This document shows, piece after piece, positions 1-30,180 of a stretch of 35,428 nucleotides of DNA (positions are counted from its first letter, which is position 1; each line of letters begins with the position of its first letter). The notes beneath the pieces were generated by a model, which worked only from the letters and a program-made list of their open reading frames with translations, made no database searches and had not been told where the DNA came from. This stretch comes from a virus. Its lineage: Duplodnaviria; Heunggongvirae; Uroviricota; Caudoviricetes. The position numbers and the translations under genes are program-made. The stretch lies in the IMG/VR virus record IMGVR_UViG_2923360383_000002; one strand, 5' to 3'.

Positions 1-288
1 TTAACGGATCAACATCCAGATCAGCAGACACGCCACCACCGGCACAGCAAAATCCATCAGGCTTGCCACATCCCATGCACGTGGATCAAAACCGCCCCAC
101 CACGGCATGTTAATCCGCTTGCCATGCCCGAACATTTCAATCCAGCGATATTCTGCCTGGGTGTGTTCACGCGCAATGAAGAACGTACAACCGGCTATCG
201 CCCCGTAAGCCCAGTTTCCGGTAAAAAGACCAGCCAGTACCTGCACCGCCACGGCACAAAGCGCATGAAGTATCGACGTGATATCCAT
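1..288 (-). CDS. Hypothetical small membrane protein (95 aa) at the distal end of the tail-fibre cluster
   Basis: Complete ORF with ATG at 288 preceded by AGGA-like RBS; hydrophobic segments in the translation (LHALCAVAVQVLAGLF, VPVVACLLIWMLI). No family recognised. Confidence 0.4.
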   Translation of the reverse strand: MDITSILHALCAVAVQVLAGLFTGNWAYGAIAGCTFFIAREHTQAEYRWIEMFGHGKRINMPWWGGFDPRAWDVASLMDFAVPVVACLLIWMLIR

Positions 289-297
289 CTGCTATCC

Positions 298-576
298 TTA
301 AAACCACTCCCTGAGCGGGTGCTCTGGTGTAACCACCCACTCACGGAACACGGAATCATCAAATCCATCCTCAAGAAGACGGATATTAACAAAGTACCCT
401 TCGTTTCGCGTGTATTCTGGTTCTCCGTCATCAGAAACATCTGTCTCCCTGAACGTAAAACCAATCTCATCAACCAGAACGGCATTCTGCAGCTCTTCGT
501 CCTCTTCCCAGTTAAGTTTCCTGAGAAATGCCCTGAAATCTGCTTTATCACTGAAACGCAACGTGAAATCTCTCAC
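298..576 (-). CDS. Hypothetical acidic protein (92 aa), translationally coupled to stf, in the position normally held by tail fibre assembly protein Tfa
   Basis: Start ATG overlaps the stf stop (ATGA); does not resemble lambda Tfa as I recall it. Confidence 0.5.
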   Translation of the reverse strand: MRDFTLRFSDKADFRAFLRKLNWEEDEELQNAVLVDEIGFTFRETDVSDDGEPEYTRNEGYFVNIRLLEDGFDDSVFREWVVTPEHPLREWF

Positions 577-2636
577 TCCACAACCTCCCCAAGCTGCGCA
601 TCTGTTAGCTCTTTATGCCAGAGACGAAAATTCCTCACATGCCCAAATAAATGGCGTAATCCTGCTGTAGTTTGTCCACCAATGCGAATGGTTGCTGTAC
701 TCCGGATATATTCCCATTTGGTTTTAGTTTCGCTGGATATACGCCCGTTACTTACTGCACATGTAGACTGATCTGACTTTACACGCATCCCCATAACCAT
801 TTTTTTCAACGATGCGTTTTCGTTAACACGTCTATTTGATCCACCAATATCGCAATAAGGAAATCCGTCTGGCCCATCTGCCGAAGATCCGAAGCCAAGA
901 ATAATAGCCGCTCCGGTTTGATGACCGCCGGTATCAAAAACACGTGGCGCTGCATTTGGCGTTTTATACCAGTTCTTATGTACCTCACAAAGAACCGTAA
1001 AAGGAAGATTATAAAGATTATTCTTAATCGGAACTGTAACCATATCGCTTGCGCGCGTCGCCGCCGTCGTTCCTGATATAATAAAAGATGATACACACGA
1101 ACCATCCTCAACCTGAGGGGTGGCCAGATAAATATAGTCACCAGATTCAACGACACCACCTTTTTTTGGTGCGTATTGTATTGCAGAGGTTATGTAAGTT
1201 TCTTTACTTGCTTGAATCGTTGCCTCTGCAAAAATCCAGCCCGTAACTTCATCTTTGTTAACTCGTGCAGTGAGCCTGTCGGCAGCTACACCGGTGATTT
1301 CAACCAATAAAGACCGCGTATTAACAATGGCATATCCAAGATTAGATGAAGCGCTGCCATCGAAGGCTTCAAACCTGATCCTTAACAGGAGTTCCAAATC
1401 CGTTTTAAATCTGCACGATGTCGTCACACACTTATTATCGCCTGATACATCGACAGCCCCCGAGGTTGAAACTACTGCCATATTAAGGGTTGTACTTTGC
1501 CCAATTAATGATTCATTACAAACAAACTTTCCATAAGTAAAACCAAAACTATCAGTTCCAACCTCAGCGACATTCATATTTGCAGATTTACCCCAAGAAG
1601 CTGGAGTTGCTGAATTCAACATGTAGTTGGTTCGCTGACCTTCAATCAATAAACCTTCTTTTTCAAATCGTGGCTCATTAATTTCCGCCGTTTTCAGTTC
1701 GCCAGATTTATTGATATATGTTGCCGTTGATGCGCGACTGAAATTAACCTGTTTATCACTGGCAACCTGAACCACATTATCACCAATCTTCACTTTTTTA
1801 TAACCCGGAGAATAGCCCGTAATCATATCCAGCGAATCATTAAAGGGTATCCACACATCCGGCAGCGGCTGTAAAACATATCTGTACGGCTCTGCTGTCT
1901 GGTTTGCGTATTCTCTGGCAGCATCTTCACTTGCTTTTGCTGCCGTCTGGCTTGCTGCCGATGCTTTCGCCGAGTTCGCCGCCGCTGTTTCGCTCACCTT
2001 TGCGTTGGCTTCACTGTCTTTGGCATTCGTCTCACTGGTTTTCGCTGCCGTCTGGCTGGATTTTGCGTTTTTTTCGCTGGCCTTTGTGGCTGTCTCGCTA
2101 TTTTTCGCGTTGGTTTCTGATTTTTTGGCTGCTGTCGCGGAGTTTGCCGATGCAGTCTGCGAGGCCGCTGCCGCCTGTGCGCTGTTAGCTGCATTCGTTT
2201 CTGAGGTTTTCGCCGCGTTCTTCGATGATGCCGCTGCAGTTTCGGATTTCTTTGCTGCCGCTGCGCTCTGTGATGATGCTCCGGCATGACGTGCCACTTC
2301 ATTCACCATCAGCTCAAAACGGCGCAGTGCCTCCGGACGGGCATCATCCTCCGTCATGGCACCGAGAAAATCATTCAGCGTACCTGGTCTGGAACCTTCA
2401 TAGACGGTAATGGTCCCGGCATGTGAAGGTGGAAAACCTTCAACCAGCAGGGTGACGCTGTACTGGCCATACTCAACATCCATGCTGTAACGCCCGGCTT
2501 CATCAGGATTTTCAGAGGCCACCGTGTTCACCAGTACCGTGGTGCTGTTACGCTTTGCCTTCAGTTGAATAGTGCAGTTCTGTATTGGTTTTCCCGCACC
2601 ATCTTTCAGCACACCTGAGATTTTTACTGCTGCCAT
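573..2636 (-). CDS. stf: Side tail fibre protein (Stf-like) with lambda-Stf-type N-terminus, A/S/T/K-rich repeat shaft and a divergent C-terminal domain
   Basis: N-terminus MAAVKISGVLKDGAGKPIQNCTIQLKAKRNSTTV...YSMDVEYGQYSV closely matches lambda Stf; likely start is ATG at 2636 with GGAG RBS (the track start at 2642 is a GTG). Confidence 0.85.
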   Translation of the reverse strand: MAAVKISGVLKDGAGKPIQNCTIQLKAKRNSTTVLVNTVASENPDEAGRYSMDVEYGQYSVTLLVEGFPPSHAGTITVYEGSRPGTLNDFLGAMTEDDARPEALRRFELMVNEVARHAGASSQSAAAAKKSETAAASSKNAAKTSETNAANSAQAAAASQTASANSATAAKKSETNAKNSETATKASEKNAKSSQTAAKTSETNAKDSEANAKVSETAAANSAKASAASQTAAKASEDAAREYANQTAEPYRYVLQPLPDVWIPFNDSLDMITGYSPGYKKVKIGDNVVQVASDKQVNFSRASTATYINKSGELKTAEINEPRFEKEGLLIEGQRTNYMLNSATPASWGKSANMNVAEVGTDSFGFTYGKFVCNESLIGQSTTLNMAVVSTSGAVDVSGDNKCVTTSCRFKTDLELLLRIRFEAFDGSASSNLGYAIVNTRSLLVEITGVAADRLTARVNKDEVTGWIFAEATIQASKETYITSAIQYAPKKGGVVESGDYIYLATPQVEDGSCVSSFIISGTTAATRASDMVTVPIKNNLYNLPFTVLCEVHKNWYKTPNAAPRVFDTGGHQTGAAIILGFGSSADGPDGFPYCDIGGSNRRVNENASLKKMVMGMRVKSDQSTCAVSNGRISSETKTKWEYIRSTATIRIGGQTTAGLRHLFGHVRNFRLWHKELTDAQLGEVVE
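1900..2290. repeat. Imperfect tandem low-complexity repeats inside stf (encode AAKTSETNAKNSETA-type shaft)
   Basis: Reiterated gctgccg/ttttcgc-type nucleotide units; all three overlapping track ORFs here show repetitive translations. Confidence 0.6.
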
Positions 2637-2647
2637 ATCCACTCCAC

Positions 2648-2673
2648 AAAAAAGCCCGCCTGAACCGGCGGGC
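2648..2673 (-). terminator. Intrinsic terminator between lom and stf
   Basis: On the minus strand, hairpin GCCCGCC-ggttca-GGCGGGC followed by TTTTTT. Confidence 0.6.
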
Positions 2674-2700
2674 TGTCATAACACTGTGTTACCTGGCTAA

Positions 2701-3300
2701 TCAGAATTTATAACCGACACCCACGATGAAACCGTCAGTGCGCCAGTCGCCACTGCCGGAGCCTTCATAAGCAATATCAATGGCCACGGATTCGGTCGGG
2801 TTAAACTGCACGCCAGCCCCCCACGCCAGAGAGGTATTGCTGTGGCGACCGTCATCACTTCCGGTCAGCACATCGTGCGTATCCCCCTTGTTGTCGGTCA
2901 CCTGAAGATAATCCCCGGAAAAAGTCGACACACGGCTGTAAGTCACACCCGCGATCGCATACGCGCTGAACCATTCATTCACGCGCACAGATGGCCCCGC
3001 CATCACGCTGAACCAGCGGTTACGCACAGAATCCTCATGCCAGCGGGTATCGCTGTAGTGCGTTTTTTTCTCATCTTCAGCATTGGCATAACTGAAGGAC
3101 GTAATCAGCCCCAGTGTGTCCGTAAACTCATAACGGTATTTCACGTTAATCCCGTTCAGATTATCGCTGCCGGGAGCGTTCGTACGGGCATGAAGATACC
3201 CTGCGCTCAGTGTGGACTGATGTTCAGACGCCCATGCAGGCGCACCGGATACGGACAGACAGATGGCTGCGGACAAAATGGCTGCACAAACTTTACGCAT
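2701..3300 (-). CDS. lom: Outer membrane protein Lom (Ail/Lom family)
   Basis: Translation has signal peptide and C-terminus IAYEGSGSGDWRTDGFIVGVGYKF matching lambda Lom; position between J and stf as in lambda. Confidence 0.9.
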   Translation of the reverse strand: MRKVCAAILSAAICLSVSGAPAWASEHQSTLSAGYLHARTNAPGSDNLNGINVKYRYEFTDTLGLITSFSYANAEDEKKTHYSDTRWHEDSVRNRWFSVMAGPSVRVNEWFSAYAIAGVTYSRVSTFSGDYLQVTDNKGDTHDVLTGSDDGRHSNTSLAWGAGVQFNPTESVAIDIAYEGSGSGDWRTDGFIVGVGYKF

Positions 3301-3321
3301 AATTACCTCTCGCTTTTCTGC

Positions 3322-3348
3322 AATAAAAAAGGCGCCATTTCTGGCGCC
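3322..3348 (-). terminator. Intrinsic terminator between J and lom
   Basis: On the minus strand, hairpin GGCGCCA-gaaa-TGGCGCC followed by TTTTTTATT. Confidence 0.6.
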
Positions 3349-3367
3349 CGTATTGGGGTTATAAAAT

Positions 3368-6300
3368 TCAGCTAATCGTGATGCCTGCAGTGGCTTTCTT
3401 CATCACAACAACCAGCAAATCGCTGATACTTGCTGTGGGATACCAGCCATTTACCCACCATGCTGATACAGAAAACTCCAGCGTCATGTGGCCGCGACCA
3501 GCAGGCATATCAATAACACCACTGTAAACCAGCGTATTATCCATCGCGGTACGGTTATAAATTTCAGCACCGTTTTTCTTCACTATCAGGCGGCATGACG
3601 AATAAGTATCGCTGTTCTCCCGCTCATGTCTGGCACCGCTGAAAGCCACCGCCGGAATAACAATCTGCCGGTTAAACGGCTGATCGTCATAAACCCTGAC
3701 GGTAATGGTTCCTGATGGCCAACGCTCCGGTGCACGGGAGTCACGGGGGAAAGCCTTACCCACTGTTTTAACGAGATCGCCTTCAATCTGGTTTGCAGAC
3801 AGTTTCCCTCTGATGACACAGTTCTCGTTAATGGTGACATTATTGAGCGTGCCGGTATTCGCCGTGATGGCTCCACTGATATCCGCATTGCGGGCTGTCA
3901 GCCTGCCATCCGGCGTCAGGGAAAACGTCGGAGGATTGCCGGATGACGTGATGCTCACCGCAAACAGTCGCTTCAGGAACACGTCGTTCATGAACAGCTG
4001 ATTCCCCTGCGCCACAAACAGCGGCGTGGTGTTGCCGTTCTCCGGGGTAATCATCGCGATACGGTCCGCCTGCAGCAGAATACTGCTCAGGGTCTGACCA
4101 TCAACATCCTCAATCCCCGCGCCAATCCCGGCCACATAGGGAATACCGTTTTTTGTTTTCTGCACCTTCAGCATATACATGGCATTCAGCTCATTGCGCG
4201 TGTCTGACTGAACCCGCTGGATTTGCTGTATGGTCACGGCCTGGTCACCCAGCTTTTTATCCGTGGTCGAGGTAATTTCACTCCCTTTTTTATCCACGTA
4301 CTGGCGGACCTGTGCTATCTGTCGGGCGTTTTCTGACTGCCCCTGGCTGACAGTCTGTGAGATTTCACTGCTCACCCGGTCCACTTTCTGGCTCACCTGC
4401 GCGATGGCCAGTGTCTGGTCCTCATTCTTTTTCGCAACCAGCTGCGTGAGGCTGTTTTCCGCCTTCCCGATTTTCCGGGTCACTTCTGCGATATCCGTGT
4501 CCATCCGCTGACGGATGTCTTCTTCCAGTTGCGTGACCTCCGTACGCAGCGCTGAAGCATCAATGCGCTCTTTCAGTGCCTGGCCCAGAAGCGTCTCATC
4601 TATCAGCCCCCGGAAAATTTCCAGATACCCTTCACCATCATTGCTGGGCTGCCCGCTGGCTTCCACAAAAGCAGATTTTCCCACCAGGTTGACGCTTCGC
4701 ACGTAAAACCAGAAATCCGTCCCCGGCTTAATCCGGCTCCCCTGGACAGTCCACTGACTGCCGGTCCCCAGATAACGGGCAGATTTTTCCACCTGTGCCG
4801 TGTTCGTGATGCGTTTTTCTGAGAACCAGAATTCAAACTGTACCGTCGGGTCATACACCGCAAGACGCGGGACCGCCGTTATCTGAAAATACCCCGGCGT
4901 CAGCTCAATCCGAGACGGCGCTGCCGGTGCGGCAATCCGGAACGATACCGATGCCGGATCGCCCTGCTGCCCCCACGCATTTACTGCCCGGACTGTCAGC
5001 GTGTACCGCCCCAGCGCCAGTTGCGTGAAGCGGTATGTGGTTTCCGTCGTCCGGGCCGTGCTGACCAGCCGCTCACTGCCGTCATCCGCTGCCACGGTCA
5101 GGCGAAGCATAAAGCTCACGCCCTTCACCACCTTCGGCGTGTCCCAGCGCGCCAGCACCTGATATTCCCCGCTGTCTGCGGTAACTTCGGCGGTCAGGTG
5201 CTGCACCGCTGGCGGCGTGACACCATTCACCGTGCCGCTCTGGTCGCCGTCAAAGTGCGCCCCGTTATCCACGATGGCCTCTTTTGCCGGTACATGCTGT
5301 ACGGCGGTGATGGCATACGTACCGTCGTCATTCTCACGGATACTCACACAGCGGAACAGGCGCTGGCGCAGCGTCGGCAGCTTCAGCCCCCACACGCTGT
5401 ATCCGGCAACGCCGTCAGGAACACGGCTCACTTTCACCTTCACACCGTCGGTGACGGACTGGACCTCCACGCTCACCGGATTACCCTGCCCGTCAACCAG
5501 GCTTATCAGAGTGGTGCCGGAGGATGGCAGCGTGATTTCACGGTCGAGCGTCAGCGTCCGGGTCTGGCTGTTTACCGCCAGCACGCGCCCGCCGGTGCTG
5601 ATACCGGCATAGTCATCATCGCAGATTTCAATGACATCGCCCGGTACATGGCGAAGCCCTTCGGCACCCACGCTGAAGTCCACGGTCTGCGTTTCCAGCA
5701 GTTCCGTTTTAATCAGCCACAGCCCGGCGCGGTGCGCCTGCCCCCGGCTGGTACAGCCAAAGGCATCCATCTTCGTGACGTTACGACCGTAACGGGCAAT
5801 GGCCTGCGTATCTTCAACAAGCTCTGTCGCCGTCTCCCAGCCGTTATCCGGGTCAATCCAGTTCACCTCAACGGCATTATGGCGGTCCTTCAGGGCGCTG
5901 AAGCTGTAGCGGAACGGCGCGCCATCATCCGGCATCACCACATTACTGCGGTTATAGGTCCACACCTTATCCGACGGTCGGTCCTGCACGAACGTCAGCG
6001 TCTGCCCGTTCCATACCGGCATACAACGCATCGCCGAGCAGAAATCACTGAGAACATCCCACGCCTTACGCTGTGTGGTCAGCCAGGCATTACAGGTGAT
6101 GCGCGGCTCCGTGCCACCAAAGCCATCCGGCACCGACTGGTCGCAATACTGGCCGATGACATACAGCGCCCATTTATCCACATCCGCCGCACCAAGACGT
6201 TTCCCCATGCCGTAGCGCGGATGGGTCAGCATATCCCACAGACACCAGGCCATGTTGTTGCTGTATGCTGGCTTAAACGTTCCGTCCCAGATACCGCTGT

Positions 6301-7066
6301 ATTGCCGCGTCTGCGGGTTATAATTCGACGGCACCTGCAGAATACGCCCGCGAAGATGATAATTACGGCTCACCTGCTGGCTGCCGAACTGTTCCGAGTC
6401 CACCTGTACGCCGACCAGTGCCGTGTTCGGGTAGCACTGTTTCACATCGATGATTTCAGTGTATGACGACCAGAGCGTTTTGTTCTGCAGCTGGTCTGTG
6501 GTGCTGTCCGGCGTCATCCTGCGCATCCGGATGTTGAACGGGCGCGGCGGCAGGTTACCCACCACCACCGAGGCCAGATACTGCGAGGTGGTTTTGCCCT
6601 TAATGGTGATGTCTTTTTCCGTCACCCAGCCACCGTTACGCTGTATCTGAACCAGCAGGCGGACTTCCGACGGATTCCGGTCCCCCTTTGAGGTGGTTTC
6701 CACCAGTGCCTGCACACCGAAGGTAAAGCGCAGACGGTCAATGTTTGCCGACGTGATGGTCCGGGTGATCGGCGTGTCATATTTCACTTCCGTACCCAGC
6801 ACCGTCTCGGAGCCGGAGGATTCAAATCCCTCCGGCGGAGTCTGCTCCTGCTCACCTGCCCGGAACACCACCGTTACGCCGGAGATGTTGGTATTCCCCT
6901 CACTGTCCAGCACCGGTGTACTGTTCAGCAGCACGCTTTTTAAGCCATCCACCGGACCTTCAACCGGCCCTTCACTGATGGCATCGATCACACTCAGCAA
7001 CTGCGTGGACTTCAGATTGTCCTTCGCTTCGCGCGGGGTATGCCCCTTACTGCTGCCTTTACCCAT
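3368..7066 (-). CDS. J: Host specificity / tail tip protein J
   Basis: 1232-aa translation nearly colinear with lambda gpJ from [17 protein letters not shown] onward. Confidence 0.95.
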
Positions 7067-21781: not shown

Positions 21782-22321
21782 ATGGATATTAAAGATAAAA
21801 TCAATACCATTTTGTTATGTGACATTGCCATCCACCTAGGTATCGAAACTGATATTGATCCACAGCTTGTTAAATATGCTGTGTCATCTGGTAATGATTG
21901 GGTTATCAAGGCCGAATATTCACATTTGGATGTTGACGAACCAAGTAAAGAAGATCGTGATTTTGTTACTGCTGTCTTGAATATGTATCGCGGACTTTCC
22001 AATGCTTTCAGGAAACTTAGTGATGACGAGCAAAAAGAATTAGTCCGTGACCATCATCTAAAAATACATGATGGGGCAATTCAGCTCCCAGGTTTCGACG
22101 GTAATAATGAATGCGATTACTTCAGTATCATTGAGGCATATCAGAAAATTGATCGCTTCCCCGAACAGAAACAGCCCATTGCCAATACTCATTCACGTAC
22201 AGAACATCTCTATAACGCAATGCTTGATGAGTTTAAGAAAATTGACGCTGTAAATCGAAGCTGGGATTTATCGAAGGAAGAACTGGCATCCATTCTTTCC
22301 ACAGCTCCACGCAGTTTCTAA
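21782..22321 (+). CDS. Hypothetical protein, possibly YfbU-family-like; plus-strand cargo gene between lysis and packaging modules
   Basis: ATG with AGAGGG RBS; AT-rich; weak pattern resemblance to YfbU family (recollection only). Confidence 0.4.
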   Translation: MDIKDKINTILLCDIAIHLGIETDIDPQLVKYAVSSGNDWVIKAEYSHLDVDEPSKEDRDFVTAVLNMYRGLSNAFRKLSDDEQKELVRDHHLKIHDGAIQLPGFDGNNECDYFSIIEAYQKIDRFPEQKQPIANTHSRTEHLYNAMLDEFKKIDAVNRSWDLSKEELASILSTAPRSF

Positions 22322-22748: not shown

Positions 22749-23231
22749 TTATCTGAGACATTGCTCACGAATGTATAGCTGTGCCCCTTCCAGTTGCTTC
22801 TGCATCGTCATCAACCGTTCTCTGAGGGTGAAATAATCCCGTTCAGCTGTGTCTGCCAGTCTGGGGCTGGTTGCATTATCCACGCTGGTGGGTCCGGTGG
22901 CTTCACGCACGGCTGCGGAGCAACTGGCATTGACCCGCAGGCGCTTACGACCAGCGGCAACATCAGCGCGCAGAGTTTCATTTTCAGCTTTCGCATTGGC
23001 TAATTCTCTCGAGTACTTTGCATCGAGCGCAGCAACATCACGCTGACGCTGCTGCATGTCAGCGATGGTGGCGGTCAGCTGCTTCAGCTCACTGACTTTT
23101 TTATCACGCTGTTCTTTGTAGGTGATGGCGTTATCACGGTAATGATTGACCGCCCACGACAGGCAGACGATGATGCAGATAACCAGAGCATAAATAATCG
23201 CGGCGACTCTGCTCACTGATCTATTCCCCAA
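22749..23231 (-). CDS. Rz: Spanin inner-membrane subunit Rz
   Basis: [30 protein letters not shown] and [16 protein letters not shown] match lambda Rz. Confidence 0.9.
22811..22996 (-). CDS. Rz1: Spanin outer-membrane lipoprotein Rz1 (embedded in Rz, +1 frame)
   Basis: Lipobox LVVSAC and proline-rich [30 protein letters not shown], as in lambda Rz1. Confidence 0.85.
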
Positions 23232-23746
23232 CAGGCTAATGCGCTTTCTTGGTCACGACGAATAACCTGTCCATAGCAGTTATTTGAACGTATGCGGCAA
23301 TCGCGCCCACCATCTTTTATCCACCAGCGAATCGCCTCGCATGCGCCCTTACGATCACCAGCATTCAGCCGCTTATAAAACGTCGATGGAAAACACTTAC
23401 CGGGGCCAATGTTATAGGGACAAAATGACGCGATACCCGCTTTTTGTGGTTCGGTCAGTGGTACTTTAATATTGCGCTCCACCCATGCCAGCGCCTTATC
23501 ACGCTCAATGGCGTTGACCTGGTCGCATTTTTCCTTCGACAGTTTCATACCGGGAAAAACGGGTTTTCCATCCACCATCGTGGCACCCCGACAGATGGTC
23601 CAGATGCCGGAACCATCGCGGTATGCCGTTGTGTGGTTACCTTCTTTTTCATCCAGAAACTGGTCGAGAATATCAGGCGCGGGCGCACCGACGGCAATCA
23701 GTGCCAGAACGGCAGCCGACAGGCCGTATCTGATTTTTGCGTTCAT
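23213..23746 (-). CDS. SAR endolysin (T4-lysozyme-type, phage 21 R-like)
   Basis: N-terminal signal-anchor-release helix ([14 protein letters not shown]) and catalytic E-x8-D-x5-T triad ([16 protein letters not shown]). Confidence 0.85.
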
Positions 23747-27603: not shown

Positions 27604-28653
27604 TTACCCAAGCACGCCGGTTGCAAAGGCGTGATCAAGAAAACGAAAAATTAAATCAACCTGGGAACCATGCTTTTCTTCGAACGCCAGCGGATCCGCA
27701 TGAAGTTCGTTGTGATGTTCCCGGCACAACGGTAGCGTGAAAATATCGTGGGCCTTTGTTCCCATCCCTCCCTGACCGTGACCAATCAGGTGATGGGGAT
27801 CGTCGGCTGGCTGACCACAACACGCACACGGCTGTGTCTTCACCCAGCGCGTATATTTCTCATTTACCCAACGGCGACGTTTAGGTCGCCTCATGAAAGA
27901 TTCCGGAGAGTCCGGATCAACGGCAATGCTGACCACCGCCTTTTCCAGTGGTGGGTTCTGTTGCTGGTGGAAGTGAGGCAACGGCGCAAGATTTTTTGTG
28001 CGCTGCTTTAGTATGCTGGTGGCGGTCTGCTCTCCCGGTACGATGTCGCTTTCGCGGTACACCGCGCGGATTTTTTCCGCACGTAACCCCAGAGAACGAC
28101 GTAATACTGCCTCCGGAAGCGCGTCCGCCACTTGATTGCAGACCGCCCACCAGGATAATTCAGCCAGCGATAACTCCCGCTCCTGCGTGCCATTCATTGC
28201 ATGGCGTATGACGTCAATCATCCATGCTGCCAGGTTTTGTTGAGCAAGTTGCTCAAGTGATTCGGATGTCTGGTCACGCAGCTGGTTATCGCAGTGCCAG
28301 CACAACACCATCGCGCCGGTGCCGTAACGATGTATGACGGTTTCACTGTGATGATAGTCACCATGAGGCCACTGGCAGGATTTGACATGACGCAACAGCC
28401 AGCCAGACAGTGCACCAGCGCCGCCAGCAGCACGAATCACACGCTCATTGCTGAAAAACCGCAGTAATGATTTATCCTCCGCCAGCGGCTGGCGAACGGC
28501 AGGGACGATGCCGGACGGCAGACCACGCATGCTTTTCGGTTCCGGCTCCACCAGCACTCGAGGGTTATGGAATACCTGCATGGATTCACGGCCTGGTTTA
28601 AGGACCACCAGCCCAAGTTCCGGTACCGGAACAGGTCGAAGTAATACCCGCAC
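27604..28653 (-). CDS. DUF968-type protein (Qin YdfU-like) with C-terminal Cys/His HNH-like motif
   Basis: 349 aa; C-terminal QPCACCG...HHLIGHGQGG...CREHHNELH; GTG start with GGAGGT RBS; position upstream of rusA as in Qin/DLP12. Confidence 0.6.
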   Translation of the reverse strand: MRVLLRPVPVPELGLVVLKPGRESMQVFHNPRVLVEPEPKSMRGLPSGIVPAVRQPLAEDKSLLRFFSNERVIRAAGGAGALSGWLLRHVKSCQWPHGDYHHSETVIHRYGTGAMVLCWHCDNQLRDQTSESLEQLAQQNLAAWMIDVIRHAMNGTQERELSLAELSWWAVCNQVADALPEAVLRRSLGLRAEKIRAVYRESDIVPGEQTATSILKQRTKNLAPLPHFHQQQNPPLEKAVVSIAVDPDSPESFMRRPKRRRWVNEKYTRWVKTQPCACCGQPADDPHHLIGHGQGGMGTKAHDIFTLPLCREHHNELHADPLAFEEKHGSQVDLIFRFLDHAFATGVLG

Positions 28654-29493: not shown

Positions 29494-30180
29494 TCACTCC
29501 TTCTCTTCTTTTCCGTAGTGGAGTTGGCCAATTTTGATAAGAGGGCGTCCCTGAGATTTGCGGTGTAGATTGGTATCGCGCAGAGAATACACACAGCCAC
29601 AATATTCCTGCTGATAGAATTTTTCGCGCTTGCTGATTTCAATCATACGGGACGAGCCGCCCTGCTTGCGCCAGTTATAATCCCAGTACACCATACCCGG
29701 ATAATGCGCAACAGCTCGCCGCCCACACTCGTTAACCTGCTGCATATTTTTCCAGCGTGAAATGCCCAGTGAACTACTGATCACACTGAAACCATTTTCA
29801 GCAGCGTACAACGCTGTCCGCTCAAAACGCATGTCAAAACACATGGTACAACGGATCCCCCTCTCAGGCTCCCATTCCATTCCTTTGGCACGTTCAAACC
29901 AGTTGTCGGTGTCGTAATCAGCATCGATAAACGGCACGCCGTGTTGTTCAGCAAAGCGAATATTTTCATCCTTACGAATTAAATACTCTTTCTGAGGATG
30001 AATGTTCGGGTTGTAGAAAAAGATGGTGTAGTCGATTCCCGAGGCCTGAAGCGCCTCCATCACTTCACCGGAACATGGAGCACAGCAAGAGTGCAGTAGT
30101 AGTTTGTTTGCCCCGTTTGGGAGCTCCAATTTAGGCCGTTTGAAATCAGCAATAGTCATAAATATTTTTATTGGGGTCAT
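29494..30180 (-). CDS. DUF208-family protein (QueH-like, epoxyqueuosine reductase family)
   Basis: N-terminal [11 protein letters not shown] cysteine motif and further Cys residues (CTMCFD, CGCVYS) typical of DUF208/QueH as I recall; unverified. Confidence 0.45.

What the first reader, a model, noticed from the sequence alone, without database searches (positions are those of the whole stretch)
1..2636. Tail fibre locus with divergent Stf C-terminus and two unrecognised coupled ORFs in place of Tfa
The Stf N-terminus is lambda-like but the C-terminal receptor-binding portion is unrelated to lambda Stf as I recall it. The downstream gene, translationally coupled by an ATGA overlap, is a 92-aa acidic protein unlike Tfa, followed by a 95-aa membrane protein. 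This may be a non-canonical fibre chaperone, or a receptor-blocking/exclusion function.
Basis: partly seen in the sequence, partly recalled or inferred. Interest (0 to 1): 0.45.

Follow-up and report, generated by a model that had tools for sequence, protein, structure and literature searches.

The report
Lectin-headed side fibre with two partners
A lambda-like prophage of E. coli carries a side tail fibre whose tip is a sugar-binding head instead of lambda's own tip. It comes with a small uncharacterised partner protein found in about 200 phages, followed by a very common small membrane protein of unknown function. The cassette is common and already catalogued, but what its two small genes do has not been worked out.

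Summary
All genes are on the minus strand: stf (573-2636/2642), a 92-aa acidic ORF (298-576) and a 95-aa three-helix membrane ORF (1-288). One detail is wrong: the stf/orf92 overlap is GTGA, not ATGA.

Stf has a lambda N-terminus (75% identity). Its C-terminal ~435 aa are unrelated to lambda's tip. They match the polysaccharide-binding head-spike fibre of the Rhodobacter gene transfer agent, and end in what looks like a LamG-like domain.

The same three genes occur in phage 21 and in at least 364 complete E. coli genomes, always annotated hypothetical.

The 92-aa protein is not Tfa by sequence or fold. It is tied to this fibre head: about 200 phage records each, with near-identical taxonomic spread, covering temperate and virulent families. 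In all 34 loci examined it abuts or overlaps (1-4 nt) a fibre ORF with the same terminal motif. I read it as a fibre-head partner, either an adaptor/cap or an assembly factor.

The 95-aa protein is a separate module. It is absent from virulent phages with the same fibre, follows unrelated fibre types in other temperate phages, and occurs in 35% of E. coli genomes. An envelope or exclusion role is plausible but untested.

This is a common cassette with unknown functions, of moderate interest.

The parts
573..2642 (-). stf, the side tail fibre gene. The longest ORF is 689 aa from GTG at 2642; the probable true start is ATG at 2636, giving 687 aa.
   Evidence: RefSeq annotates 573-2636 in the identical prophage. 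PHROG 1419 tail protein, E = 0.
2241..2630 (-). Lambda-type N-terminal tail-attachment domain of Stf (aa 5-134).
   Evidence: PF08400, 224 bits. 75% identity to lambda orf-401. Matches the lambda Stf chain in PDB 9e7m at E 5e-49.
1893..2315 (-). Ala/Ser/Thr/Lys-rich shaft (aa ~110-250), with repeated AAKTSETNA-like motifs.
   Evidence: Weak repeated matches to the lambda Stf shaft. Composition seen directly in the translation. TRF finds no DNA tandem repeat here.
1005..1874 (-). First head domain (aa ~257-546), homologous to the RcGTA head-spike fibre Rcc01080. It starts at the conserved PLPDVWIPFNDSL ... INEPRFEKEGLLIEGQ motifs.
   Evidence: NCBIfam NF048003, 47.5 bits against a cut-off of 36. 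PDB 6tb9 sequence match at E 7e-6 over aa 301-546. The motifs are conserved in distant homologues.
576..1010 (-). Terminal head domain (last 145 aa), probably a LamG/concanavalin-like jelly roll, ending in GHVRNFRLWHKELTDAQL.
   Evidence: The phage 21 homologue (50% identical) hits PF13385 Laminin_G_3 at E 1e-5, 26.0 bits against a cut-off of 27.6. Five further homologues hit at E 0.001-0.04. The window protein itself gives no hit. The terminal motif is conserved in the close and intermediate homologues and recognisable in looser form in the distant ones, across the 34 upstream fibre ORFs.
298..576 (-). orf92: a 92-aa acidic alpha/beta protein, the partner of the fibre head. GTG start overlapping the stf stop (GTGA).
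   Evidence: PHROG 1361. AlphaFold2 pLDDT 89.8. 54 family representatives at 50% identity. 194 phage records.
584..588 (-). GGAGG Shine-Dalgarno for orf92, inside the 3' end of stf, 7 nt before the GTG.
   Evidence: Read from the sequence.
1..288 (-). orf95: a 95-aa three-helix membrane protein. Helices span residues 4-23, 26-53 and 74-94. The invariant core is REHTQAEYRW ... MPWWGGFD.
   Evidence: PHROG 1443. 563 homologues. AlphaFold2 pLDDT 95.3. Invariant columns listed.
295..299 (-). AAGGA Shine-Dalgarno for orf95, overlapping the orf92 stop codon. The intergenic gap is 9 nt.
   Evidence: Read from the sequence.
2653..2674 (-). Terminator-like GC hairpin plus T-run between lom and stf.
   Evidence: Phage 21 annotates a terminator at the equivalent position, between its J-homologue (central tail fibre) and stf; no lom is listed there.
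2701..3300 (-). lom (Ail/Lom outer-membrane protein). Context gene.
   Evidence: PF06316, 416 bits.
3368..7066 (-). J, the central tail fibre / host specificity protein. Context gene.
   Evidence: Annotated gpJ in the identical prophage.

Best explanation
This is the distal host-recognition cassette of a lambdoid prophage. It has three functional units.

(1) Stf is a modular chimera. The lambda-type N-terminus and Ala/Ser-rich shaft anchor it to the tail (shown by homology). The last ~435 aa form a non-enzymatic, lectin-like head. That head consists of a domain homologous to the capsule-binding head-spike fibre of RcGTA, followed by a probable LamG-like jelly roll. By inference it binds a surface polysaccharide (O-antigen, capsule or LPS) as primary receptor.

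(2) orf92 is a cytoplasmically made, acidic alpha/beta protein, translated in a fixed ratio with Stf through the GTGA overlap. It is the dedicated partner of that head type; the genomic coupling is shown. I infer that it docks on the conserved terminal domain, probably through its invariant, flexible C-terminal P-x-R-x-W tail, and stays as a cap or adaptor. In branched-fibre relatives its gene sits between the proximal fibre gene and a distal fibre gene (S74-type or T-shaped). Its sequence tracks the downstream gene rather than the head. In this prophage no distal fibre exists, so it would act only as a cap or assembly factor.

(3) orf95 is an independent accessory gene of temperate phages, parked at the 3' end of fibre modules of many kinds. 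It encodes a three-helix inner-membrane protein with an almost invariant 35-residue polar/aromatic segment. I infer that it acts on a conserved envelope component of the producing or lysogenic cell. A superinfection-exclusion or DNA-entry block is the most likely single role. It does not act on the fibre.
For: Stf chimera. The RcGTA head-spike fibre is a single subunit that binds capsular polysaccharide (PMC7296036, PMC10218006).

The cassette recurs. It is in phage 21 (CPT_21_22/23/24), PhiR40_1 (97.7% identical) and ev243. At least 364 E. coli genomes carry this allele pair of orf92 and orf95.

orf92 is coupled to the head.
- The terminal domain is found in 202 phage records and orf92 in 194, with near-identical organism breakdown (Escherichia 162/158, Salmonella 16/15, Campylobacter 8/8, Dhillonvirus 3/3).
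- In all 34 loci with upstream sequence, a large ORF ends at the start of the small ORF, and its C-terminus ends in the same motif, looser in the distant loci.
- This holds in virulent Queuovirinae, Tequintavirus, Dhillonvirus and Vequintavirus. Drexlerviridae-sized (~50 kb) records appear in both hit lists, but I did not confirm their taxonomy or check their synteny. It also holds in environmental contigs at 28-35% identity.

orf92 is a distinct protein. Its confident fold has no Tfa-like match. R89 and W91 are invariant and P87 nearly invariant, in a tail with low pLDDT.

Sequence decoupling. Window versus VogelGryff: terminal domain 88%, orf92 43%. Window versus phage 21: 50% and 63%. VogelGryff versus IrisVonRoten, which have similar distal fibres: 79% and 60%.

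orf95 is independent.
- It is absent from the virulent loci above.
- It is present after stf+orf92+distal fibre, after a P2-like S74 fibre, after Tfa with a 4-nt overlap in phiHAP-1, after a Uetakevirus tail fibre and after gpJ in Comamonas.
- It stands alone in an Aeromonas chromosome.
- It occurs in 1899 of 5426 E. coli genomes, median two copies, and is 55-65% identical across classes of bacteria.
Against: No direct evidence of a physical Stf-orf92 contact.

The adaptor reading does not explain loci, including this one, where no distal fibre follows. In several environmental contigs orf92 is followed by holin-like genes. Co-variation with the downstream gene could simply reflect linkage.

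The LamG assignment is below threshold for homologues and absent for the window protein itself.

For orf95, no promoter-like site was found anywhere in 1-3400. A terminator-like hairpin separates stf from lom. orf95 is tightly coupled to late genes in most contexts. All of this points to late lytic expression, which fits a lysogenic-conversion or exclusion role poorly.

Distant orf95 relatives occur away from fibre genes: in a ~44-kb Aeromonas phage and in ~235-240-kb jumbo Aeromonas phages, whose lifestyle I did not check.
Confidence: 0.5

Rival explanations
1. orf92 is a transient, non-structural folding or oligomerisation chaperone for the Stf head. It would be a functional analogue of lambda Tfa, T4 gp38 or P2 G with an unrelated fold, released before or at virion completion.
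Against: The homologous RcGTA head-spike fibre was produced in E. coli as a functional capsule-binding fusion without any partner, and the gene next to it is a capsule gene (PMC10218006). Beta-sandwich lectin domains are not the trimeric beta-helix or needle tips that known fibre chaperones serve (general knowledge). orf92 diverges independently of the head it would fold (88% against 43%).
Confidence: 0.3
2. orf92 is itself the distal adhesin: a small receptor-binding tip carried on the LamG-like domain, as gp38 is in T2/T6-type phages. Its variable loop would set host range.
For: There is a hypervariable, indel-rich segment at residues ~41-59, between conserved strands. orf92 diverges faster than the fibre head.
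Against: In many phages a large dedicated distal receptor-binding fibre follows it. The protein is strongly acidic and small. The lectin-like head already supplies a plausible binding site.
Confidence: 0.08
3. orf95 is a late lytic membrane function, such as a lysis-timing or membrane-integrity accessory, or protection of progeny from adsorbing to debris. It would not be a lysogen-expressed exclusion protein.
For: It is tightly coupled to late genes (9 nt here, 0-4 nt in Leclercia and phiHAP-1). There is no promoter-like site. In Uetakevirus phiv142-3 it lies directly upstream of a holin-family gene, holin, endolysin and endopeptidase.
Against: In this window the lysozyme and Rz genes are about 22 kb away (22749-23746). 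orf95 lacks the charged C-terminal tail typical of holins (sequence). It exists as a lone chromosomal gene in Aeromonas.
Confidence: 0.2
4. orf95 specifically masks or modifies the receptor recognised by this Stf, so that lysogens or debris do not trap the phage.
For: Its position next to the receptor-binding gene parallels cor (phi80/N15) and T5 llp (own knowledge, not tested here).
Against: The same, highly conserved protein follows structurally unrelated fibres in different bacterial classes. It is missing from virulent phages with the same fibre head. It is a polytopic inner-membrane protein, not a lipoprotein.
Confidence: 0.07

Closest known systems
Lambda Stf-Tfa side tail fibre module (Ur-lambda; Pfam PF08400 + PF02413)
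   Same: Same genomic slot (J-lom-stf-accessory). The N-terminal 160 aa are 75% identical. An accessory gene overlaps the 3' end of stf. Phage 21 and two prophages keep a tfa 3' remnant after the cassette.
   Different: The C-terminal receptor-binding part is unrelated. The accessory protein is half the size, acidic, alpha/beta, and has no Caudo_TAP homology.
RcGTA head-spike fibre Rcc01080 (NCBIfam NF048003; PDB 6tb9/6tsu sequence)
   Same: Sequence homology over about 245 residues of the Stf head. The GTA protein is a lectin-like, capsule-polysaccharide-binding protein (PMC10218006).
   Different: The GTA protein sits as a single subunit on capsid pentons through an N-terminal Leu-Gly repeat and has no orf92-like neighbour. 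Here the domain is fused to a tail-fibre shaft and is always followed by orf92.
Branched or two-part lateral tail fibres of T5-like and other siphoviruses (DT57C LtfA/LtfB; IrisVonRoten proximal fibre + T-shaped RBP)
   Same: IrisVonRoten, VogelGryff, ESCO3, KarlBarth and CarlMeissner carry the same head (55-88% identity in the terminal domain). In each, an orf92 homologue lies between the proximal and distal fibre genes. BASEL annotates the IrisVonRoten homologue as 'tail fiber protein'.
   Different: This prophage has no distal fibre gene anywhere in the window. The published descriptions do not assign a role to the small protein (PMC10713586, PMC8594841, bioRxiv 2024.09.12.612763).
Receptor-adjacent exclusion genes and fibre-adjacent morons (cor of phi80/N15, llp of T5, Z/fun of P2)
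   Same: orf95 is a small envelope protein encoded right after receptor-binding genes of temperate phages. In phiHAP-1 it lies between tfa and the sheath gene. From my own knowledge, that is the position of Z/fun in P2.
   Different: No sequence or structural similarity to any of them was found. orf95 is a three-helix polytopic protein rather than a lipoprotein, and no exclusion phenotype is known.

Membership tests
Lambda-type side tail fibre (PF08400 phage_tail_N) | N-terminal domain scoring above the Pfam gathering threshold, and located after J/lom. | tested here: met
   223.9 bits against a cut-off of 26.6. 75% identity to lambda orf-401. Gene order J-lom-stf.
Lambda Stf receptor-binding C-terminus (orf-314 / T4 gp37-like tip) | Sequence similarity of the C-terminal part to lambda orf-314. 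| tested here: not met
   Best BLASTP E = 5.8.
GTA head-spike fibre domain (NCBIfam NF048003) | HMM score above the curated cut-off. | tested here: met
   47.5 bits against 36, over aa 332-531. phmmer hit to the 6tb9 Rcc01080 sequence at E 7e-6.
Laminin_G_3 / concanavalin-like jelly roll (PF13385) | HMM score above the gathering threshold (27.6 bits) on the terminal domain. | tested here: inconclusive
   The window protein gives no hit. The phage 21 homologue scores 26.0 bits (E 1e-5), and five other homologues score E 0.001-0.04, all aligned to the profile's C-terminal end. No structure model was made of this domain.
Tail fibre assembly protein Tfa (PF02413 Caudo_TAP) | Sequence homology to Tfa / Caudo_TAP. 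| tested here: not met
   No Pfam hit for orf92 or for 21 relatives. BLASTP against lambda Tfa gives E = 16.
Tail fibre assembly protein Tfa (PF02413 Caudo_TAP) | Gene immediately 3' of the fibre gene, with translational coupling. | tested here: met
   GTGA overlap here; ATGA or TAATG in relatives.
Tail fibre assembly protein Tfa (PF02413 Caudo_TAP) | Required for fibre folding or assembly. | not testable with these tools
   Needs genetics or biochemistry.
Intramolecular chaperone fibres (Peptidase_S74) | S74 domain at the C-terminus of the fibre. | tested here: not met
   No PF13884 hit in Stf. S74 is found only in the separate distal fibre genes of relatives.
PHROG 1361 (unknown function) | Full-length HMM match. 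| tested here: met
   orf92 scores E 1.3e-40 over 1-92 of 92 positions.
PHROG 1443 (unknown function) | Full-length HMM match. | tested here: met
   orf95 scores E 4.4e-57 over 1-95 of 97 positions.
Holins | Small TMD protein with a charged C-terminal tail, encoded next to the endolysin. | tested here: not met
   orf95 ends ...LIWMLIR with a single basic residue. The lysozyme and Rz genes lie at 22749-23746. There is no holin PHROG hit.
Known anti-phage defence / exclusion proteins (PADLOC-DB v2) | HMM match to a catalogued defence protein. | tested here: not met
   No hit at E <= 1 for orf92 or orf95. An exclusion phenotype was not testable.

The most novel reading that the evidence does not exclude
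Two novel readings are not excluded. First, orf95 (PHROG 1443) may be a new, very widespread phage-encoded inner-membrane superinfection-exclusion or envelope-conversion protein. It is carried in about a third of complete E. coli genomes, often in several copies. Second, orf92 (PHROG 1361) may define a new class of fibre-joint adaptor that lets lectin-headed proximal fibres carry exchangeable distal fibres. That would make it a universal 'socket' for branched lateral fibres across at least five phage families.
Probability: 0.25. Interest if true: 0.65.

Novelty: new variant of a known kind. Interest (0 to 1): 0.42.

Why it matters
Side and lateral tail fibres set the first step of host recognition and are the main handle for engineering phage or delivery-particle host range. 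If orf92 is needed for, or is part of, lectin-headed fibres, then any chimera built from the roughly 200 phage fibres and thousands of prophage fibres of this type must carry its cognate orf92. The orf92 boundary would also be the natural splice point for exchanging distal fibres.

orf95 is one of the commoner unannotated prophage genes in E. coli (35% of complete genomes). Assigning it an envelope or exclusion role would explain part of prophage-mediated phage resistance.

Neither point overturns current understanding. Both fill gaps in a well-known architecture.

Tried and rejected
The interface therefore could not be modelled.
- The Foldseek AFDB50 library was not available.
- Profile searches of both families against PDB sequences found nothing credible. 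The only hit was a telomerase p19 match at E 0.004, judged spurious.
- Pfam, NCBIfam and PADLOC gave no hit for either small protein.
- The search for related loci failed with the family alignment and found nothing with P0285.
- Two large proteins that matched the orf92 profile in several stretches (P0286, P0303) are internally repetitive and were judged spurious.
- Literature searches found no description of either small protein. They covered phage 21, the two BASEL papers, DT57C, a tail-fibre atlas preprint, the Eligo Stf chimeras, epsilon15/Kapi1 and 'Ybl63'.
- DT57C LtfC is a different protein, a 140-aa collar.
- Kapi1 hyp24, a candidate seroconversion gene between the tailspike and int, is only 34 aa and was not pursued as an orf95 homologue.
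- There is no distal-fibre homologue anywhere in the window.
- No promoter-like site was found in 1-3400.
- There is no DNA tandem repeat in the shaft region.
- All source names for both proteins are 'hypothetical', apart from 'Prophage protein', 'Ybl63' and one 'tail fiber protein'.
Full report
**Anatomy**

The region lies entirely on the minus strand of a lambdoid prophage. Bases 1-600 are 100% identical to a prophage next to zinT in E. coli APEC 16-1068.

The gene order is J (3368-7066), lom (2701-3300), a terminator-like hairpin (2653-2674), stf (573-2642), orf92 (298-576) and orf95 (1-288). For stf, the ATG at 2636 with a GGAG upstream is the start RefSeq uses.

orf92 starts with GTG and overlaps the stf stop codon as GTGA. 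orf95 starts 9 nt after the orf92 stop, with AAGGA overlapping that stop.

orf92 is acidic (pI 4.3) and hydrophilic, with no signal sequence. orf95 is hydrophobic (GRAVY +0.61).

The rest of the window holds ordinary lambdoid functions: HK97-type capsid, TerL, lysozyme and Rz at 22.7-23.7 kb, and replication genes.

**The fibre**

Residues 5-161 are 75% identical to lambda Stf. They match PF08400 and the lambda Stf chain in PDB 9e7m. The C-terminal part has no similarity to lambda orf-314.

Residues 301-546 align with the RcGTA head-spike fibre Rcc01080 (PDB 6tb9 sequence, E 7e-6). The region also passes the NCBIfam GTA_spike_fiber cut-off.

In RcGTA that protein is a single, flexible, lectin-like subunit that binds capsular polysaccharide. 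It was made as a functional fusion in E. coli without a partner (PMC7296036, PMC10218006).

The last 145 residues end in GHVRNFRLWHKELTDAQL. Homologues of this domain give sub-threshold Laminin_G_3 hits aligned to the end of the profile: phage 21 at 26.0 bits against a cut-off of 27.6, and five others at E 0.001-0.04. The window protein itself gives none. The LamG-like fold is therefore an inference.

Stf contains no S74 intramolecular chaperone domain.

**The cassette is common and already catalogued, but unnamed**

- The same three genes are in phage 21 (side tail fiber, hypothetical protein, putative membrane protein), in PhiR40_1 (97.7% identical DNA) and in ev243. mEp460 matches about 40% of the 2.7-kb query, across all three genes, at ~80% DNA identity.
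- All three proteins fall into PHROG families. Those of the two small proteins have unknown function.
- Every source name for the small proteins is 'hypothetical', apart from 'Prophage protein', 'Ybl63' and one 'tail fiber protein'.
- At least 364 complete E. coli genomes carry this allele pair of orf92 and orf95.
- Phage 21 and two prophages retain 20-36 codons of the tfa 3' end directly after orf95. This indicates that the cassette replaced an ancestral Stf-C/tfa segment.

**orf92 is a partner of the fibre head**

A profile search over 1.8 billion representative proteins found 54 family members, 85-110 aa long. Invariant positions are M1, D3, L6, F8, D36, G60, N64, R66, R89 and W91. I38, G39, V63 and P87 are nearly invariant.

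AlphaFold2 gives a confident alpha/beta fold (pLDDT 89.8). Only the C-terminal P-x-R-x-W tail has low confidence.

Its genomic behaviour is that of an obligate fibre partner:
- tblastn finds orf92 in 194 phage records and the 145-aa terminal fibre domain in 202, with almost the same organism breakdown.
- The records span lambdoids and virulent Queuovirinae, Tequintavirus, Dhillonvirus and Vequintavirus. Drexlerviridae-sized (~50 kb) records are in both hit lists, but I did not confirm their taxonomy.
- In all 34 loci I could examine, including environmental contigs with only 28-35% identity, a large ORF ends at the start of the small ORF. That ORF's C-terminus ends in the same motif, which is clear in the close and intermediate loci and looser in the distant ones.

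**Chaperone or structural adaptor?**

Points favouring a retained adaptor or cap:
- In 13 loci the next gene is a distal fibre: S74-type, T-shaped or gp37-like.
- orf92 similarity follows that downstream gene rather than the head. Window versus VogelGryff: head 88%, orf92 43%. Window versus phage 21: 50% and 63%. VogelGryff versus IrisVonRoten: 79% and 60%.
- DNA homology with VogelGryff breaks close to the stf 3' end, at window base 611.
- The GTA homologue of the head needs no chaperone (PMC10218006).

Points favouring a transient chaperone:
- This window has no distal fibre anywhere, nor does phage 21.
- In several environmental contigs orf92 is followed by holin-like genes.

The conserved core function must therefore concern the upstream fibre itself.

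I could not co-fold the pair. I put the adaptor/cap reading slightly ahead of the transient-chaperone reading. A receptor-blocking role for orf92 is very unlikely, since it is a cytoplasmic acidic protein.

**orf95 is a separate module**

It has 563 homologues, 55-65% identical from Escherichia to Aeromonas and Comamonas. The segment REHTQAEYRWI..FG.GKR.NMPWWGGFD.R.W is almost invariant.

AlphaFold2 predicts three helices (residues 4-23, 26-53, 74-94) at pLDDT 95. No library or structure search gives a lead.

Where it is and is not found:
- Absent from all virulent phages that carry the same fibre plus orf92.
- In temperate elements it closes fibre modules of unrelated kinds: after stf+orf92 (here and phage 21), after stf+orf92+distal fibre, directly after a P2-like S74 fibre in Leclercia, overlapping tfa in Halomonas phiHAP-1, after a Uetakevirus tail fibre just before lysis genes, and after gpJ in a Comamonas prophage.
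- A lone chromosomal gene in Aeromonas.
- Distant relatives sit away from fibre genes in Aeromonas phages, including ~235-240-kb jumbo phages.
- Present in 1899 of 5426 complete E. coli genomes, median two copies, up to eight.

This pattern excludes a role in fibre assembly. It also argues against masking of the receptor that this particular fibre binds. It fits a generic envelope function carried by temperate phages, such as an exclusion or DNA-entry block, but nothing here demonstrates that.

Against lysogenic expression: no promoter-like site was found in 1-3400, a terminator-like hairpin lies upstream of stf, and orf95 is tightly coupled to late genes. A late lytic membrane role is therefore the main rival.

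**Verdict**

Its interpretation is partly supported. There is indeed a non-Tfa fibre accessory protein. The membrane protein is not a fibre-specific receptor blocker; it is an independent and very common accessory gene.

The cassette is neither rare nor new as a sequence. What is new here is the evidence that PHROG 1361 is the dedicated partner of lectin-headed fibres across many phage families, and that PHROG 1443 is a mobile terminal gene of fibre modules in temperate phages.

Both functional assignments are inferences that need the experiments listed.

Noticed in passing
L002 3907-3966 (phage 21), L014 4907-4966, L013 4859-4966: A 20-36-codon remnant of the lambda tfa 3' end (80-86% identical to Tfa residues 156-191) lies directly downstream of orf95 on the same strand. 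This indicates that the Stf-C/orf92/orf95 cassette replaced an ancestral Stf-C/tfa by recombination. No remnant was detected downstream in the prophage identical to the window (L015).
   Followed up: partly
window 29494-30180 (-): The prophage encodes a full-length epoxyqueuosine reductase QueH homologue (PF02677, 221 bits), an unusual cargo in the early/replication region.
   Followed up: no
window 2653-2674 (-): A strong terminator-like hairpin (8 bp, 7 GC, followed by a T-run) sits between lom and stf. The stf-orf92-orf95 unit would then need antiterminated late transcription or a promoter of its own. None was found by the consensus scan.
   Followed up: no
L004 6001-6309 (Aeromonas rivipollensis chromosome): An orf95 homologue (55% identical) is a stand-alone chromosomal gene between a pirin gene and a RIO1 kinase gene. 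Two lipid A acyltransferase genes are nearby, and there are no phage genes within 6 kb.
   Followed up: no
L015 3921-5000 (just outside window base 1): In the identical APEC prophage, about 1.08 kb of AT-rich (39% GC) unannotated DNA separates orf95 from zinT. Only its last 109 bp are shared with PhiR40_1 and PhiR47_1. The window starts exactly at the orf95 stop codon.
   Followed up: partly
L016 5289-, L007, L008, L013, L018 (distal fibre genes after orf92 homologues): Otherwise different distal fibres share an N-terminal motif, roughly T-x-T-(V/N)-IP-x-DI-x-x-LK. It could be the docking peptide for the proximal fibre/orf92 joint.
   Followed up: no
phage records MG065692, MG065666, MG065676 and others: Eight 'Campylobacter phage' records and two or three 'Listeria' records carry this E. 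coli-type fibre head plus orf92. They look like coliphage genomes (T5-like or rV5-like sizes) deposited under another host name.
   Followed up: no
window 124-771 (+), 2005-2289 (+), 1994-2302 (-): Long ORFs, antisense or out of frame, overlap orf92/orf95 and the Ala/Ser-rich Stf shaft. They are mechanical products of the composition and have no support as genes.
   Followed up: no
window 21782-22321 (+) and 27604-28653 (-): There is a YfbU-domain protein on the opposite strand between the terminase and lysis genes, and a DUF968 protein in the early region. Both are accessory genes of unknown role in this prophage.
   Followed up: no
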